Positions 9,001-15,000 of a DNA stretch of 17,056 nt are shown here, piece after piece (position 1 is the stretch's first letter; the number at the start of each line of letters is the position of its first letter). Location: positions 1 to 17,056 of IMG/VR virus record IMGVR_UViG_2671180921_000025, one strand, 5' to 3'. This DNA is from a virus. Lineage: Duplodnaviria > Heunggongvirae > Uroviricota > Caudoviricetes. Position numbers: made by a program.

Positions 9001-12000
9001 CGAGTACGACGATCTTCCCGGTAAGTCTGACGGCATGGAGGAAAGCGCGCGCCGCGCAGTTGAGGAACGGGCCGAAAAACTGCCACATGAATGCCCTCAA
9101 TGCCACTACATGAAGCCAGCTGGCGTCTATGTTTGCCCTAAATGTGGACACAAGCCGCTGCGAGGTGAAGATGTTGATACTGACACTAGCCGCAAACTTA
9201 ATAAGCTGGGTAAAAATCAGCATCAGTCGACGAAGGCAGAGAAACAGTCCTGGTGGAGTCAGATCAAATTTTATCAGCGCCAGCGTGCTTCGCTGGGGCG
9301 TCCAGTCAGTGATGGATGGTGTGCTCACACTTTCAGGGAGAAATTCGGTGAATGGCCTGATGGGTTGAGCAGTTTCCCGATGGAAATAAGCCCAGAAGTA
9401 AGTAACTACATCAAACACAAGCTGATTCGGTTTGCCAAAGGCCGTCAGCGGACGCAGAGAACTATAGAAAAATTGCAGGCAACAATTCCTCTGTCTCAGG
9501 AACGAGGTGAGCGAAGCGAGATGCCAATAGGCACTGAGGCTTGGCGCATCATGCAAGCAAAGCAACAACTCCAGAAAAATATAAACAGTTTGAGTCAGTA
9601 AGATGAAAACAGCAGCTGCAGCGAAAGGCCGCTGGCCTGAAATATTAGAGCACTTCGGCTTGCCGCCGATAACAGGAAAAAATCACTTCAAGGGTGAATG
9701 CCCGGTATGCGGTGCACGTGGCAAGTTCCGAATTGATGACCGCGACGGTGCAGGAACGTGGATCTGTGTATGTGGTAGTGGCGATGGTATGAAACTTGTC
9801 ACCCTGACACAGGCGAAGCCATTTAACGAGATTTGTACCGAAATAGACCGCCTGATCGGTAATGATTACCAACGGGTTAAAATCCCGGTAACCAGCAGCG
9901 CCACCAGCTTACGCAAACGGGTATTGAGCAAGTTTTCAAAACTGGAGGCACTGCGTGGTACATCCGGCGCATCGTATCTTAATTCTCGTGGAATATTCAG
10001 TCTTCCTGCTGAGGCGATCCGGTTCAATGCCAGGCAGAGACACAACGGGAGTGTGTTCCAGTCTCTTTATTCACTTGCTACGGACGATAAAGGGGAGTTG
10101 TGCTATCTGCACCAGACTCTGCTTGATGGTGATAAAAAAGCAGATATCGGTAGCAGTGCAAAGCGCCTCAAATCCCTGCAGGAAGATAACTATTTGGATC
10201 ACGCTCGTTCTGTAGCTATCCGCATGTTTCCTGTTGCTAGCACTCTGGGTATCGCCGAAGGCATCGAAACAGCGCTGTCAGCGCACCAGATTTATAACGT
10301 GAACACCTGGGCAACCATTAACAGCGGCTTTATGAAAAAGTTCCGCGTACCAGCTGGTGTTCTGCACCTGATTATTTTTGCCGACCGTGACGAGAACAGC
10401 GCCACCGGGCTGGCTGCGGCTTGCGAATGTGCTCATGCCAATCTGATGGCAAAGAATGACCTGCAGCGCGTGAGCGTGTACTGGCCGGATCACGATGATT
10501 TCAACAATATGCTCATGAACGGTGATCAGGTTCGAGAGCTGGTTTTCCATAAGAAAAAGGCGGTTGCGTAATGCGTACTGATAACAACGAACATAAAGCA
10601 CTATTCACCATCCCGACGGCAGCGTACAGTTCCGCCCTCGCAAACATCAAGCCCCTGCCAGAGCAACGGAGAATCACCGGGCATAAGCAGACTGATGCTT
10701 ATCTTTGGGTGCTGGAGGTTATCCGTCTGAACGAACCCGCACATCTGGATGCTGCTGAGGCTGCGCTGGTGAAAATTAAAATTTCCCCAAAAGAGGCCCA
10801 GGAACGCTATTCGCGTTATCTGCTGGCGAATGGTGGTGATCCTTTCCAGATTGCTTTCGGTACCATCGGCATGGATAACCCGGCACAGGCAATCAGGATC
10901 GCCCGGGAGAATATCAAAAAAGCAACATCAGTCAGGGCTACGTTTGGTAGCTATGAAGCAGCACTCGAAGATGTGGAAGCCGAGCGAGTGATCAAGTCTT
11001 CCCAGAAATTTATCGACGATCATCTCTGGGGCTGGACTGCAGCCGAGAAGACAGCGGGCAGAATTGATGGCATCCGTATGAATGAAATTGATGATCAGCG
11101 TCGTGCATATGTTGATGGCTATCGTGATGTACTGCCAGAGCCTCATACATTGTCAGACGTAGTTCGTGAGTTTGTTTACTGGGACTGGCTCTACAGTGTT
11201 CGCCACACTGCGTCTAAAGAACAGGGCGATGAGTATGGTTACTCTGAGCATCACGAATCGGTATATGACCGCGAGCGCTACCTTGAAAAATTGCTGATGA
11301 CCATCAAACCGGTGACACGGGCTGAAGCCGTGGAGGTGTGTCGTTGGTTTTTGGCAAGCGGAAAGGGCGAATATATGAAAGACAATGGCGCGACGGTTAT
11401 TCTTAATCTGGTTGGGGAGTGTGAATAATGAAGCTTGAGGCATCGCTAAAATACTTCAGTCCTCAGGGAATGTATATCGGCGACGATGTGAAAGAAACCT
11501 CTCCGGAACGTCTTACAGGCACCGATGTTATGGCGGCTATTGGTACCACCAGCAATCGTGAGCGGTTTGGCCTGGCGGCCTTCTTCGGGAAGGCCGGTAT
11601 CAGCAAGACTGATGAGCAGATGGCAGTCCAGGCGCTGGCGCGTCACGCGATGGAAATTGCACCGAAGAATGTGCGTAAAGCAGCTGGTGGTGAATTTGGC
11701 TGGTGTATGCTGGTACTGGCGCAGTTTGCTTTTGCTGAGTATTCCCGATCGGCGGCCACCAGCGTAACATGCCATAGTTGCAGTGGTACCGGACTAACAC
11801 CCCGTAAGCAGGTCATTCGTAAGGTTTCATACCCATGGGGTAAAGCACCATATTGGGCCAGTCGCTCCCGTGCTGTTCGACCGTCAGATTGGGAGAAATG
11901 GACAGAGGTAACGGAAGTTGTACTAGTCGTTTGCGATGTATGTAGAGGGAAGGGAGTGATAAGTGCCAGGTGTCGTTGTGGTGGAAAGGGAGAGGTACTG

Positions 12001-15000
12001 GACCGCAAAGCCACAAGCGAGCGTGGTGTGCCAGTGTTTAAAATCTGCGAACGTTGCAGCGGAAATGGATTTTCCACGGTACCGTCTACCACAGTATATA
12101 AAGTTGTACTGAAGCGGATACCCGAGCTACATGTCAGGACATGGACGCGTAATTGGAAGCCGTTTCTTGATTCTCTGGTTGACATTTGCCACCAGGAAGA
12201 GCGTAAGGCCGATATTGCTTTTCAGAATGTGACAAGTTTTGGTGATGATGTGAACTAAGCTTAGGGTTTTTGCGACATTGCACTTGATTTTGTCCGAATC
12301 TGTCATGTATTCTTTTAAGCATGCGGAATAATGCGTAAATGATTTTGATAGAAGCCCCTTTCGGGGCTTTTATCATTTCAGCCCGTTTAAAAAGCGTTCG
12401 AAATTATGGAATTCAAGTTCATCCGCTGTCGATGAGTATTTTATTTTGTTTGCGATGGGACGCAGATTTTTTTTAGTTAGGAATTTACTGGCTTCATGTT
12501 TCAGTTTTTTTAATCGCTTGATTCGTTCTTCGATTGAACTGGCAATTTGGGCAACATTAGAAATTTCTGGGCTTGGGGCTGTTTGTAGATCAATACACTG
12601 AATTTTTTTTAGATCTTCTTTGAGCGCAACAAAAAAATCACGAAGATTGTTTTCTGGTAAAAGAACATGACTAAATGATACTTTTCCTATGTAGAATTCA
12701 CTTATTGCCTCTCCAGACTCGCGCATGTGTTCATTCATTGCGAACAGAATTGTTTTGGTATTCTTATCAGTTTCCACTTCAGAAAGGGTTACAAGGCCTG
12801 TCTGGCTCTTGGTCAAAAAACGAATTTCTGTAGCACCAAGTCTTCCGGAGTAATTGGAATTTTTACTATTTTCGATGGTAGAAGATAGATAATCTATTGT
12901 GGGTTTGATATTTCGTATCGTTTCAATATTTTTTGCCACTCTTCACATTTACTTTTTGCGGTGCTAATAATTTCCCGATTGGTTTCGAGTTGCATAAATT
13001 TATTGAAACTAAGAACGTTTTCACCAAATTCCACACCAAATTCGTTTTTACCACATTTATTTCCGATGTTGGTTTCAATGCCACTAGATGTTTTTACAAT
13101 ATAACCCATTTGATGTGGTTGGTTGCAACCAGTTAGACCACAGTGGATTTCTTCTTTAAATTTGTAGTAACCAATTATCTCCTCAAGTTGTTGAACTCCT
13201 TTGTCTATAGTGGTGACAAAGTTTGGTCTGGATATAATTTCCTCCCAGTTTTCAAGTTTCTCGATGCCGTTTTCAGTTCTGAGAAAAATCATGAATCGCT
13301 CCATTTGAAAGTGGACCGTTTATTTTATCGGCATAAAAATGAGAACACCACAAGTTATTTTATTACCGAATACTTGGTAAAGATGGGTAACTTCGCCACA
13401 CAGCTTAAACACGCCGCCGGGCGGTTTTTTTATGTCCGTAAACCGGTCGTGGTGCCAGGGGGGGGCATAGTCAATGGACGCTCCTCTTGACCAGGCTGTG
13501 GCTGAAGTAAAGTTTATGGTGTTCTTTATATGTGAGAGATTCTCTATTCTATAAAAATATAAACCATATACCCGTAATCTTAAATAATTGATACTATTTT
13601 CCGGAAGCTATAGTGCATCATTATCTGCTTTCTGTTCCTGATAAACAGGGAAGTAATACATTGTGCAGTCATTTCCTGTGAGGGGATTTGTTTGTAATAA
13701 ATTTCTGCTAAAAACATTCCGGACTTCTTGCGAGGTATTATTCCTGGCGCTGCCGGTTCAGACTGATGGAGTGTTAATATATGCGACATATATTATTAAA
13801 GCTGGTGTTGTTTTTTTGTGTTTGCTTGTCTTCAGCATCTTATGCAGATGAGTTTACTGTGGATTTCTCTTCGCAAAAGAGCTATGTTGATTCATTGAAT
13901 AGTATAAGGTCGGCAATATCCACTCCACTTGGAAATATATCTCAGGGTGGTGTTTCTGTTTCAGTAATTAATCATGTTCCAGGCGGAAACTATATATCAT
14001 TGAATGTTAGAGGCCTTGATCCATATAGCGAGAGATTTAACCACCTCCGTTTAATAATGGAACGGAATAACTTATATGTTGCAGGCTTTATTAATACTGA
14101 AACGAATACCTTTTACAGATTCTCCGATTTCTCACATATTTCAGTGCCTGATGTGATAACTGTTTCCATGACGACGGACAGCAGTTATTCATCATTACAG
14201 CGAATCGCAGATCTGGAACGTACAGGGATGCAGATTGGGCGTCATTCACTGGTTGGTTCATATCTGGATTTAATGGAGTTCAGAGGACGTTCCATGACCC
14301 GCGCATCATCCAGAGCTATGCTGCGTTTTGTCACAGTGATAGCAGAAGCTCTGCGATTCAGACAAATACAGCGGGGATTCCGACCGGCGCTGTCTGAGGC
14401 ATCTCCGCTTTATACAATGACGGCTCAGGATGTTGACCTTACCCTGAACTGGGGAAGAATAAGTAATGTTCTTCCAGAGTACAGAGGAGAGGAAGGGGTA
14501 AGAATCGGTAGGATATCTTTTAATAGTCTTTCTGCGATTCTCGGAAGTGTTGCGGTCATCCTTAATTGCCACTCAACCGGAAGTTATTCAGTTCGTTCCG
14601 TGAGCCAAAAACAGAAAACAGAATGCCAGATTGTTGGAGACAGGGCGGCCATTAAAGTAAATAATGTTTTGTGGGAAGCGAATACAATCGCTGCTTTATT
14701 AAATCGCAAGCCTCAGGATCTTACTGAACCAAACCAATAACAGGGGGTGAATATGAAGAAGATGATTATTGCAGTTTTATTCGGTCTCTTTTCTGCTAAT
14801 TCCATGGCGGCGGATTGTGCTGTAGGAAAAATTGAGTTTTCCAAGTATAATGAGGATGATACCTTTACTGTGAAGGTGTCAGGAAGAGAATACTGGACGA
14901 ACAGATGGAATTTGCAGCCATTGTTACAAAGTGCTCAGCTGACAGGGATGACTGTAACAATCATATCTAATACCTGCAGTTCAGGCTCAGGCTTTGCCCA

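What the first reader, a model, noticed from the sequence alone, without database searches (positions are those of the whole stretch)
11428..12375. Candidate Q-type antiterminator with four CxxCxGxG zinc knuckles, followed by a short promoter-terminator unit
The 276-aa protein is the last gene of the rightward early operon, with its ATG overlapping the preceding stop. It is followed within about 115 nt by a strong intrinsic terminator, the same geometry as lambda Q-pR'-tR' (6S RNA). Several near-consensus -35 elements are present (TTGCGA at 12270, TTGATT at 12284), but I could not pair any with a clean -10. The fourfold DnaJ-like Cys motif is unusual for a Q protein if that is what it is. The non-lambda Q families are larger, which is why I suspect the phage-82 type.
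Basis: inference. Interest (0 to 1): 0.55.

Follow-up and report, generated by a model that had tools for sequence, protein, structure and literature searches.

The report
Lambda-type Q antiterminator of Stx2f phage
This is the late-gene switch of a Shiga-toxin-2f phage: a lambda-family Q antiterminator with an enlarged two-zinc arm, followed directly by its own promoter, binding site and terminator. It is an ordinary kind of system, but the control site had not been located for these toxin phages.

Summary
ORF 11428-12258 encodes a 276-aa protein with four Cys knuckles (three CxxCxGxG, one CxCxGxG), and a strong hairpin terminator follows at 12352-12375.

The window is about 99.9% identical to Stx2f phage phi467. 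The protein is a Q antiterminator of the lambda family (Pfam PF03589, 175 bits; only Q-lambda structures match its sequence and its model).

Lambda's single zinc ribbon aligns with motifs 3 and 4. Motifs 1 and 2 plus a beta-hairpin form an extra module at the base of the DNA-binding arm. This long arm is common in the family.

Directly after Q lies a late promoter-terminator unit:
- −35 TTGATT at 12284
- a 13-bp Q-binding frame TTGTCCGAATCTG at 12290
- −10 TATTCT at 12308
- a −10-like box at 12317
- the terminator

The unit occurs once, downstream of Q, in all 109 related loci that could be scored. Its upstream half-site changes together with the Q recognition helix, with no exceptions. The predicted transcript is about 55 nt.

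An antisense pseudogene and a relic of a 933W-type late promoter separate this unit from stx2f. The protein was already annotated; the site assignment is new but incremental.

The parts
11428..12258 (+). Q antiterminator gene, 276 aa, Q-lambda family (PF03589), long-arm form
   Evidence: Pfam Antiterm 3e-52, 175 bits against a 26.7 cutoff, and phrog_127 2.7e-98. PDB best hits are Q-lambda 7UBM, 4MO1 and 7UBJ. The AF2 model matches only Q-lambda chains, 2.6e-10 to 1e-4. 43% identity to lambda Q.
11428..11607 (+). N-terminal ~60 residues. This is the counterpart of the disordered lambda Q segment that refolds into the RNA-exit 'nozzle'.
   Evidence: Conserved with lambda (MxLE..K..SP, GTDVMAAxG, FGxAAFxGK). 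pLDDT is below 50 for residues 1-29. In locus L005 the first 52 residues are identical to lambda Q and are fused to a long-arm Q. The role is taken from PMC9388147.
11761..11967 (+). Extra arm module (aa ~112-180): Cys motif 1 (aa 115-122), a long beta-hairpin (aa 123-168), and Cys motif 2 (aa 169-176). Absent from lambda Q.
   Evidence: Alignment with lambda. AF2 strands at 123-134 and 157-168. The linker varies between 46, 35 and 0 aa in relatives. The module is gained or lost as a unit: P0127 versus P0134.
11968..12075 (+). Counterpart of the lambda zinc-ribbon arm (aa ~181-216): motif 3 CRCGGKG and motif 4 CERCSGNG
   Evidence: HMMER aligns query 180-268 with lambda 116-205, with the same 25-26 aa spacing. 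In lambda this ribbon contacts QBE positions 11-13, and its tip contacts sigma region 4 (PMC9388147).
12082..12177 (+). Helix-turn-helix of the body (aa ~219-250), with recognition helix ...LHVRTWTRNWKPF
   Evidence: Aligns with the lambda H4-H5 HTH. pLDDT is about 90. Recognition-helix variants co-vary with the upstream half of the DNA site.
12284..12289 (+). -35 element TTGATT of the late promoter (pR')
   Evidence: T28 T29 G28 A24 T25 T29 of 29 distinct sequences.
12290..12302 (+). Predicted Q-binding element, 13-bp frame TTGTCCGAATCTG
   Evidence: It lies between -35 and -10, as in lambda. It has TTG at positions 1-3 and (T/c)TG at 11-13, like lambda TTGAATAAAATTG. Positions 4-7 switch from TCCG to CATA exactly where the recognition helix switches from VRT..T to QSS..S: 75 loci versus 33, with no exceptions.
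12308..12313 (+). -10 element TATTCT (18-bp spacer)
   Evidence: TAnnnT with T29, A28 and T29 of 29. Relatives have TATGCT, TAAGCT, TATGAT or TATTAT at the same place.
12317..12322 (+). -10-like box AAGCAT (family consensus AATCAT, followed by GG). Candidate sigma-dependent pause element. The predicted start is the purine at 12321.
   Evidence: A at position 2 and T at position 6 in 28 of 29 each; position 5 is always a purine. It lies 14 nt after QBE position 13, exactly as lambda AACGAT-GGG lies after the lambda frame. Function is inferred.
12321..12338 (+). Small 5' stem-loop of the predicted transcript
   Evidence: MFE structure. Across the family, 74.5% of cells pair against 25-51% in slid controls, and 11 cells carry changes on both sides. 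Support is moderate.
12352..12375 (+). Intrinsic terminator tR' (stem AAGCCCC/GGGGCTT, loop TTTC, U-rich tail). It also abuts the stop codon of the convergent (-) ORF.
   Evidence: z = -5.4 on + and -3.45 on -. A + strand terminator sits at the same place in 27 of 28 relatives, with different, compensating stems and T5-T7 tails.
12373..13304 (-). Antisense cargo gene, split here into two overlapping ORFs (12373-12939 and 12894-13304). It lies between tR' and the toxin genes.
   Evidence: The two halves match the two halves of phrog_7003. The gene is intact at 306 aa in L005 and L006. There is no Pfam, PADLOC or NCBIfam family.
13366..13432 (+). Relic of a 933W-type (PF06530-Q) late promoter: initial transcribed region plus its first terminator (hairpin 13413-13425 and a T7 run)
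   Evidence: Alignment A4 with Stx2 II, phiP27, SfIV and WGPS2. The -10 here is TACTTG, so the final T is lost. Homology with non-Stx prophages ends at ~13431-13438, which marks the junction with the stx2f cargo.
13781..15016 (+). stxA2f (13781-14740) and stxB2f (14753-15016), the downstream genes that Q-modified polymerase would reach
   Evidence: Pfam RIP and phrog_866. RefSeq names stxA2f. phi467 annotation.

Best explanation
The ORF encodes the late-gene antiterminator Q of a Stx2f-converting phage. It belongs to the Q-lambda family.

The protein keeps four lambda features: the N-terminal segment that forms the RNA-exit nozzle, the four-helix body with its helix-turn-helix, the C-terminal helix, and the zinc-ribbon arm (motifs 3 and 4). 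It adds a second zinc-binding module (motifs 1 and 2 joined by a long beta-hairpin) at the base of the arm.

Its cognate control unit lies directly downstream. It consists of a sigma-70 promoter (TTGATT, 18 bp, TATTCT), a 13-bp Q-binding element between the hexamers (TTGTCCGAATCTG), a -10-like box at the same distance from that element as lambda's pause element, and a strong terminator.

Without Q, polymerase starting near 12321 stops at 12371-12378 and makes an RNA of about 55 nt. With Q, the HTH reads the upstream half of the site and the arm reads the downstream half. Q then loads onto the sigma-paused polymerase, which reads through four things in turn: this terminator, the antisense pseudogene, a second terminator at 13413-13432, and then stx2f, two tRNA genes and the lysis genes.

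Shown here: family membership, the conserved cis unit, and the protein-DNA covariation. Inferred: the start site, the pause, the two-zinc stoichiometry and antitermination itself.
For: Family:
- PF03589 at 175 bits and phrog_127.
- Only Q-lambda chains match in the PDB by sequence and by fold.
- A natural chimera carries lambda's exact first 52 residues.

Cis unit:
- The core motif occurs once in the window, with 0 expected by chance.
- It occurs once, on the + strand and downstream of Q, in all 29 genome and E. coli loci and in the viral loci, down to 43% protein identity.
- A cargo cassette can sit either before it (L007, L021, L022) or after it (window, L004-L006), so it is an independent unit that travels with Q.
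- A terminator follows in 27 of 28 loci, with compensating stem changes.
- Lysis genes follow it in loci without cargo, and in L006 directly after the antisense cargo gene.

Specificity: the recognition helix is VRT, IRT or PRT with TTGTCC (75 loci) and QSS with TTGCAT (33 loci), with no cross-pairs. The arm and the downstream half-site stay the same in both groups. This matches the published division of labour in Q-lambda, where the body HTH reads positions 1-4 and the arm reads positions 11-13 (PMC9388147).

Geometry: 14 nt separate frame position 13 from the nAnnnT box, both in lambda and here.

Zinc topology: lambda's ribbon aligns with motifs 3 and 4. Motifs 1 and 2 come and go together in close relatives, and a beta-hairpin joins them in the model.
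Against: - No transcript, pause or readthrough data exist for this phage.
- The -10 is only 4 of 6 and the spacer is 18 bp, so the simple promoter scan did not report it.
- The predicted start (12321) falls inside the -10-like box. A sigma pause would therefore occur at about +12, which is shorter than the published 16-25 nt range (PMC4914094). Either the start or the pause-element assignment may be wrong.
- No -35-like hexamer lies just upstream of the box, unlike in lambda.
- The exact lambda QBE frame was set by me from the sequence and from the paper's description (a 13-bp site, positions 1-4 and 11-13). I could not take it from the paper's figure.
- The AF2 model is only moderate in the arm (pLDDT 55-85), and I had no coordinates to measure Cys clustering.
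- The loci are related by descent, so counts of loci overstate the number of independent events. The QSS/TTGCAT switch may be a single event.
Confidence: 0.8

Rival explanations
1. The functional late promoter for stx2f is the second unit at ~13340-13432, next to the toxin genes. On this view the 12284-12375 unit is only the terminator of the early operon, or a separate small-RNA gene.
For: 13366-13432 is homologous to the initial transcribed region and first hairpin of the known 933W-type late promoter. In L003, that promoter's predicted start gives exactly the published 258-nt pR'-tR' transcript. The unit lies just upstream of the stx2f cargo junction.
Against: - That promoter type belongs to PF06530 Q proteins. 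None was seen in the seven window ORFs scanned, and phi467 has only one annotated antiterminator.
- The -10 in the window is TACTTG, so the critical last T is lost.
- The region where a Q site should lie is completely different in window, L003, L005 and L006, although their Q recognition helices are the same.
- The 12284 unit, not this one, tracks with Q in every locus.
Confidence: 0.08
2. The hairpin at 12352-12375 is mainly a shared terminator for the convergent Q operon and the (-) strand cargo gene. On this view the conserved upstream motif is a promoter or operator unrelated to Q.
For: The (-) ORF stops at 12373, inside the hairpin tail. The extended stem has an A run on one side and a T run on the other, and it also folds on the - strand with z = -3.45. 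Ending the early operon here is compatible with any model.
Against: - The hairpin and motif persist in L003, where the (-) gene is gone, and in most loci, which have no convergent gene.
- The tails are T-rich on the + strand only.
- The motif co-varies with the Q recognition helix.
Confidence: 0.07
3. The protein is a DnaJ-like zinc-domain chaperone or a replication accessory factor encoded at the end of the helicase-primase operon. It is not an antiterminator.
For: There are four Cys-rich knuckles. Weak hits exist to the DnaJ central domain (25.2 bits) and to TIGR02349 (21.5 bits). The gene sits immediately after replication genes.
Against: - Both hits are far below their cutoffs (32.7 and 377 bits).
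- There is no J domain.
- Lambda Q itself gives the same weak DnaJ hit.
- DnaJ structures are not significant in the fold search (E about 2).
- The rest of the protein is Q-lambda from end to end.
Confidence: 0.01
4. It is a phage-82-type Q.
For: None beyond its size differing from lambda Q.
Against: There is no PF06323 hit at E<=0.1. PF03589 is the Q-lambda family by the definition in PMC9388147.
Confidence: 0.01

Closest known systems
Bacteriophage lambda Q with pR'-QBE-SDPE-tR' (PDB 4MO1, 7UBJ-7UBN; Pfam PF03589)
   Same: - 43% identical over the N-terminal nozzle segment, the four-helix body, the HTH, one zinc ribbon and the C-terminal helix.
- The gene is followed directly by a promoter with the Q site between -35 and -10, a -10-like box 14 nt after that site, and an intrinsic terminator.
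- The division of labour is the same: the HTH reads the upstream half and the arm reads the downstream half. This is supported by covariation.
   Different: - The arm is about 105 residues instead of 39 and has a second Cys4 module.
- The site sequence is TTGTCCGAAnTTG rather than TTGAATAAAATTG, and its central positions 5-9 are conserved.
- The promoter hexamers are shifted about 3 bp downstream relative to the site, so the predicted start lies inside the -10-like box.
- There is no -35-like hexamer before the box.
- The terminated RNA is about 55 nt rather than 193-194 nt.
- 1.4 kb, including an antisense pseudogene and a second terminator, separates the unit from the first late-region gene.
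933W / Stx2a-Stx1a phage Q (Pfam PF06530) with its pR'-tR' unit, which yields StxS sRNA (PMC7547250)
   Same: - The biological role is the same: a constitutive late promoter that is terminated in the lysogen and antiterminated by Q to express stx.
- The terminated RNA could likewise act as a small RNA.
- A relic of this promoter type is present at 13366-13432.
   Different: - The Q is from an unrelated family, is 157 aa, and has a different Q site.
- Its terminated transcript is 258 nt and is processed to 74 nt.
- tRNA genes lie between Q and stx, whereas here they lie after stx.
276-aa Q of Stx2f prophages in Escherichia albertii 2011C-4180 and RM9976 (PMC10673567)
   Same: Same length, same Pfam family (PF03589) and same Stx2f context. 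Most likely the same protein.
   Different: That study reported finding neither PR' nor the Q-binding site upstream of stx2f. Here the unit is placed right after Q, 1.4 kb upstream of stxA.
DnaJ cysteine-rich domain (Pfam PF00684)
   Same: Four repeats of the CxxCxGxG type.
   Different: - The hit is below the family threshold, there is no J domain or C-terminal domains, and the fold search is not significant.
- The zinc sites are most likely sequential (1+2 and 3+4), not nested (1+4 and 2+3).

Membership tests
Q-lambda family of antiterminators (Pfam PF03589) | Sequence match to the family profile above the curated threshold | tested here: met
   175.1 bits against a 26.7 cutoff, E 3e-52. The lambda Q control scores 193 bits.
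Q-lambda family of antiterminators (Pfam PF03589) | Four-helix body with a canonical helix-turn-helix, resembling the solved Q-lambda structures | tested here: met
   The AF2 model has helices 60-109 and 220-270 at pLDDT 85-94. Foldseek finds only Q-lambda chains, 2.6e-10 to 1e-4.
Q-lambda family of antiterminators (Pfam PF03589) | Zinc-ribbon arm with four Cys ligands between the two body halves | tested here: met
   Motifs 3 and 4 align with lambda C118, C121, C144 and C147 at the same spacing. An additional Cys4 module is present. Metal binding itself was not tested.
Q-lambda family of antiterminators (Pfam PF03589) | Conserved, intrinsically disordered N-terminal ~60 residues that form the nozzle | tested here: met
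   The sequence is conserved with lambda, pLDDT is low for residues 1-29, and a natural chimera carries lambda residues 1-52. Nozzle formation is not testable here.
Q-lambda family of antiterminators (Pfam PF03589) | Gene followed by a promoter with a Q-binding element between -35 and -10, a -10-like pause element and a terminator | tested here: met
   Shown by sequence and comparison only. The position of the pause element relative to the start deviates from lambda.
Q-lambda family of antiterminators (Pfam PF03589) | Q-dependent readthrough of terminators (antitermination activity) | not testable with these tools
   This needs a reporter assay or in vitro transcription.
   No hit at E<=0.1.
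Q21 / 933W-type family (Pfam PF06530) | Sequence match to PF06530 | tested here: not met
   No hit at E<=0.1 for the window protein. The Stx2 II Q control scores 170.6 bits.
DnaJ / Hsp40 (PF00684 central domain; TIGR02349) | Cysteine-rich domain above threshold, together with a J domain | tested here: not met
   25.2 bits against a 32.7 cutoff. TIGR02349 gives 21.5 bits against 377. No J-domain hit. DnaJA2 scores E about 2 in the fold search.
DnaJ / Hsp40 (PF00684 central domain; TIGR02349) | Nested zinc topology (motifs 1+4 and 2+3) | tested here: inconclusive
   Homology to lambda pairs motifs 3+4. Modular loss of motifs 1+2 and the hairpin joining 1 and 2 argue for sequential sites. No coordinates or metal data were available.

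The most novel reading that the evidence does not exclude
The long-arm Q proteins, which are at least as numerous as lambda-like ones among family clusters, may load onto polymerase with a different geometry from lambda Q. Three things would follow:
- The extra Cys4 and beta-hairpin module at the arm hinge would contact the conserved central positions 5-9 (CCGAA) of the site, which lambda Q leaves untouched.
- The sigma-dependent pause would occur unusually early (about +12), because the pause element overlaps the start site.
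- The ~55-nt terminated RNA, with its 5' stem-loop, would act as a StxS-like regulatory small RNA in Stx2f lysogens.
Probability: 0.2. Interest if true: 0.5.

Novelty: new member of a known kind. Interest (0 to 1): 0.3.

Why it matters
Stx2f-producing E. coli and E. albertii cause human disease, including HUS. Toxin output depends on how the prophage late operon is switched on.

A 2023 study found the 276-aa Q in Stx2f prophages but could not find the late promoter or the Q-binding site upstream of stx2f (PMC10673567). Placing that unit at 12284-12375 gives a concrete, testable map of stx2f control. The unit sits directly after Q and 1.4 kb upstream of stxA, beyond an antisense pseudogene and a second terminator.

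The analysis also shows that the textbook lambda Q is the minimal version of its family. Many relatives carry a second zinc module in the DNA- and sigma-contacting arm. In addition, a natural pair of recognition-helix and half-site variants offers a ready-made specificity swap experiment.

None of this changes the known mechanism. It is an annotation-level advance.

Tried and rejected
1. Unit B as the real pR'. I first noticed that 13380-13400 (GATGGGTAACTTCGCC) resembles the lambda initial transcribed region (GATGGGTTAATTCGCT) and is followed by a terminator. Comparison showed it to be a relic of the 933W-type (PF06530) late promoter. It has a damaged -10 and no conserved upstream site, and it does not track with Q.

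2. Direct-repeat reading of the site. I first read TTGTCC/CTGTCA as two Q subsites. The paper shows that this model belongs to Q21, and that Q-lambda binds an asymmetric 13-bp site as a monomer. I reframed the site accordingly.

3. A pause element at +7..+12 (TATAAC-like). Its key positions are poorly conserved (A in 18 of 29, T in 8 of 29). The box at 12317-12322 has 28 of 29 for both.

4. Rfam. No family matches either unit; only the two tRNAs match.

5. Function of the antisense cargo gene and of the 285-aa ORF upstream of Q. There are no Pfam, PADLOC or NCBIfam families above noise.

6. Literature on CxxCxGxG in Q proteins. Only one paper holds both terms, an Acinetobacter phage genome report; I did not read it.

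7. Measuring Cys-Cys distances in the AF2 model. Coordinates are not exposed to the script environment.

Full report
SOURCE AND OBSERVATION

The window is about 99.9% identical to Escherichia phage phi467 (LN997803.1), the Stx2f phage of HUS strain EF467, and to Stx2f prophages in three complete E. coli genomes.

ORF 11428-12258 (+) is 276 aa. Its ATG shares a base with the stop codon of the preceding 285-aa ORF. That ORF follows a Toprim/zinc-ribbon primase and a DEAD-box helicase in one tightly packed rightward block.

The protein carries CHSCSGTG (115), CDVCRGKG (169), CRCGGKG (182; one residue short of the canonical spacing) and CERCSGNG (207).

The hairpin at 12352-12375 is real and strong. 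The 60-nt RNA from 12321 folds at -25.2 kcal/mol with z = -5.4, and it is better as a + strand than as a - strand terminator.

WHICH Q FAMILY

- Pfam gives PF03589 'Antiterm' at 175 bits (cutoff 26.7), and PHROGs gives phrog_127 'anti-termination protein Q-like'.
- PF03589 is the Q-lambda family, PF06530 the Q21 family and PF06323 the Q82 family (PMC9388147).
- Neither PF06323 nor PF06530 is hit. As controls, lambda Q gives PF03589 and the Stx2 II (933W-type) Q gives PF06530.
- In the PDB only Q-lambda chains match by sequence (7UBM 5e-36).
- The AF2 model (pLDDT 70 overall, about 90 in the body helices) matches only Q-lambda chains by fold (2.6e-10 to 1e-4). DnaJA2 scores E about 2.
- The DnaJ central-domain hit (25.2 bits) is below its cutoff, and lambda Q gives the same weak hit.

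THE FOUR KNUCKLES

HMMER aligns the protein to lambda Q in two blocks, 1-123 and 180-268.

Lambda's zinc ribbon (C118, C121, C144, C147; the 'arm', residues 114-152) corresponds to motifs 3 and 4. The spacing is the same 25-26 residues and the linker is homologous.

Motifs 1 and 2, and the 46 residues between them, are extra. In the model those residues form a long beta-hairpin, with strands at 123-134 and 157-168.

Relatives carry linkers of 46, 35 or 0 residues. Two representatives that are about 90% identical elsewhere differ by a 67-aa indel that removes exactly two of the four motifs (P0127 and P0134). This modularity, and the homology of motifs 3+4 to a solved ribbon, argue for two sequential zinc sites rather than the nested DnaJ arrangement. 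That conclusion is an inference, because I had no coordinates or metal data.

The long arm is not rare:
- 516 close homologues are annotated 'antitermination protein' across Enterobacteriaceae.
- Among full-length 50%-identity representatives, about 30 have four motifs and about 15 have two. This ranking is biased towards the query's architecture.

THE CIS UNIT AFTER Q ('UNIT A', 12284-12375)

I compared the window with 4 E. coli prophages, 24 genome loci from other genera and 80 viral contigs. The motif cTTGATTTTGTCCGAAnTTGTCnTGTATGCTTCTAATCATGG occurs exactly once per locus, on the Q strand, downstream of Q. This holds down to a Pantoea locus with 43% protein identity.

In the window it occurs once, with none expected by chance. 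It is usually 20-60 nt after the stop codon. In three loci a cargo cassette separates it from Q. In the window and three E. coli relatives (L004-L006), cargo lies after it instead. So it is a discrete unit that stays between Q and the late genes.

Column statistics on 29 distinct sequences:
- a near-invariant -35 TTGATT
- TTG at 12290-12292 and TG at 12301-12302
- AA at 12297-12298
- a TAnnnT hexamer at 12308-12313 (T29, A28, T29)
- a second nAnnRT hexamer at 12317-12322 (A28, T28, purine 29 of 29 at position 5), followed by G-rich sequence

After 25-40 variable bases, a + strand terminator follows in 27 of 28 loci. The stems differ but compensate, and the tails are T5-T7.

In loci without cargo, holin and endolysin genes follow. 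In L006 they follow the antisense gene.

PROTEIN-DNA COVARIATION

Q proteins whose recognition helix reads ...LH(V/I/P)RTWTRNWK have TTGTCC(G/T/A)AA in the upstream half of the site (75 loci). Those reading ...LHQSSWSRNWK have TTGCATA.. (33 loci). There is no cross-pair, and the one unscorable locus is a contig that ends at the Q stop codon.

The arm (motifs 3-4) and the downstream half-site (TTGTC) are the same in both groups. This matches the solved Q-lambda-DNA complex. There, a monomer binds an asymmetric 13-bp site, the body HTH contacts positions 1-4, residues near the zinc ligands contact positions 11-13, and the arm tip touches sigma region 4 placed just upstream of sigma region 2 on the pause element.

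Read in that frame, lambda is TTGAATAAAATTG and the window is TTGTCCGAATCTG. In both, 14 nt separate position 13 from a nAnnAT box followed by G's: AACGAT-GGG in lambda and AATCAT-GG in the family consensus (AAGCAT-GCGG in the window). The loci are related by descent, so the switch may be one evolutionary event, but the pairing is exact.

WHAT REMAINS UNCERTAIN IN UNIT A

The promoter is TTGATT, 18 bp, TATTCT. It scores 8 of 12 and was therefore not reported by the simple scan. Its support is comparative.

The fixed '-10 hexamer, 7 nt, conserved purine-TGG' arrangement predicts a start at 12321 and a terminated RNA of about 51-58 nt (about 50-75 nt across the family). The start then lies at position 5 of the -10-like box.

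If that box is the sigma-dependent pause element, as its A2/T6 conservation and lambda-like spacing suggest, the pause would fall near +12. Published values are 16-25 nt. Relative to the site and the box, the promoter hexamers are simply shifted about 3 bp downstream compared with lambda.

No -35-like hexamer precedes the box. Site positions 5-9 (CCGAA) are conserved, although lambda Q does not contact the equivalent bases. That is where I would look for a role of the extra zinc module.

A small 5' stem-loop in the predicted RNA has moderate covariation support: 74.5% of cells pair, against 25-51% when the partner is slid, and 11 cells carry double changes.

BETWEEN UNIT A AND THE TOXIN GENES

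A (-) strand gene of unknown function (phrog_7003) is intact at 306 aa in relatives. In the window it is split into two overlapping ORFs.

Beyond it, 13366-13432 aligns with the -10, the initial transcribed region and the first hairpin of the late promoter of 933W-type Stx phages, and with similar units in phiP27, SfIV and Stx2a_WGPS2.

In L003, that promoter's hexamers (TTTACG, 16 bp, TATCAT) predict a start 258 nt before the end of the tR' T run. This is the length published for the StxS precursor, which validates the identification.

That promoter type serves PF06530 Q proteins. In the window its -10 reads TACTTG, its upstream part is unrelated, and no PF06530 Q was seen among the seven window ORFs scanned; phi467 has a single annotated antiterminator. 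I therefore regard it as a relic whose terminator (13413-13425 plus T7) remains.

Homology with non-Stx prophages stops right after that T run, which marks the stx2f cargo junction. Q-modified polymerase from Unit A would have to cross both terminators and 1.4 kb to reach stxA. Q-loaded complexes do this over thousands of base pairs.

COMPARISON WITH THE LITERATURE, AND NOVELTY

- The phi467 paper lists 'antitermination protein Q' near vtx2f (PMC5189129).
- A 2023 study of E. albertii describes a 276-aa PF03589 Q in two Stx2f prophages. It states that neither PR' nor the Q-binding site could be identified upstream of stx2f (PMC10673567).
- Terminated late-promoter RNAs are known from lambda (6S RNA) and from Stx1/Stx2a phages, where StxS is a functional sRNA (PMC7547250).

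The protein's identity is thus already known, and the system is a standard Q cassette. What this analysis adds:
- the location and anatomy of the cognate promoter, site and terminator
- the protein-site covariation
- the recognition that the four-knuckle arm is a lambda ribbon plus an added module, and is common
- the relic second late promoter

VERDICT

This is a real feature and it is correctly flagged as a Q cassette. Interest is modest (0.3).

Noticed in passing
window 12373-13304 (- strand): An antisense cargo gene of unknown function (phrog_7003) lies between the late terminator and stx2f. It is 306 aa and intact in L005 and L006. Here it is split into two overlapping ORFs (12373-12939 and 12894-13304), and it is also truncated in L004. 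It has no Pfam, PADLOC or NCBIfam family.
   Followed up: partly
window 13366-13432: A relic of a 933W-type (PF06530-Q) late promoter with an intact terminator. Its initial transcribed part also resembles lambda's (GATGGGTAACTTCGCC against GATGGGTTAATTCGCT). That resemblance across Q families is unexplained.
   Followed up: partly
L005 (NZ_CP027459) 2829-3659; also H17 and H18: A natural chimeric Q. Residues 1-52 are identical to lambda Q and are fused to a long-arm Q body and arm. This suggests that the nozzle-forming N-terminus is interchangeable between short-arm and long-arm Q proteins.
   Followed up: no
L003 (NZ_CP027586) 3660-4160: Two late-promoter units lie in tandem. The long-arm Q's own unit is followed by a remnant of the antisense gene, and then by a complete 933W-type pR'-tR' (StxS-type) unit without its Q. 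This looks like a scar of Q-module replacement.
   Followed up: partly
window 13458-13465: A run of eight G just downstream of the second terminator. The three Stx2f prophages that match the 1701-base query 12100-13800 end to end span 1701-1703 bases, which may reflect variation in the length of this run.
   Followed up: no
window 15530-15683: tRNA-Thr(tgt) and tRNA-Gly(tcc) lie after stxB rather than between Q and stx as in other Stx phages. This was already noted for phi467 in PMC7366253.
   Followed up: no
window 7943-11428: The replication module is a DEAD-box helicase plus a Toprim/zinc-ribbon primase plus a 285-aa protein of unknown function (phrog_6204). It replaces lambda O/P and the nin region, and Q follows it directly, with no NinG, NinH or RusA genes in between.
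   Followed up: no
window 12371-12378, compared with L003, L005 and L006: The terminator tail in the Stx2f phage is TTTTATCATTT (four U, then A). Close relatives have T5-T6. The weaker tail might make tR' leakier in this phage.
   Followed up: no
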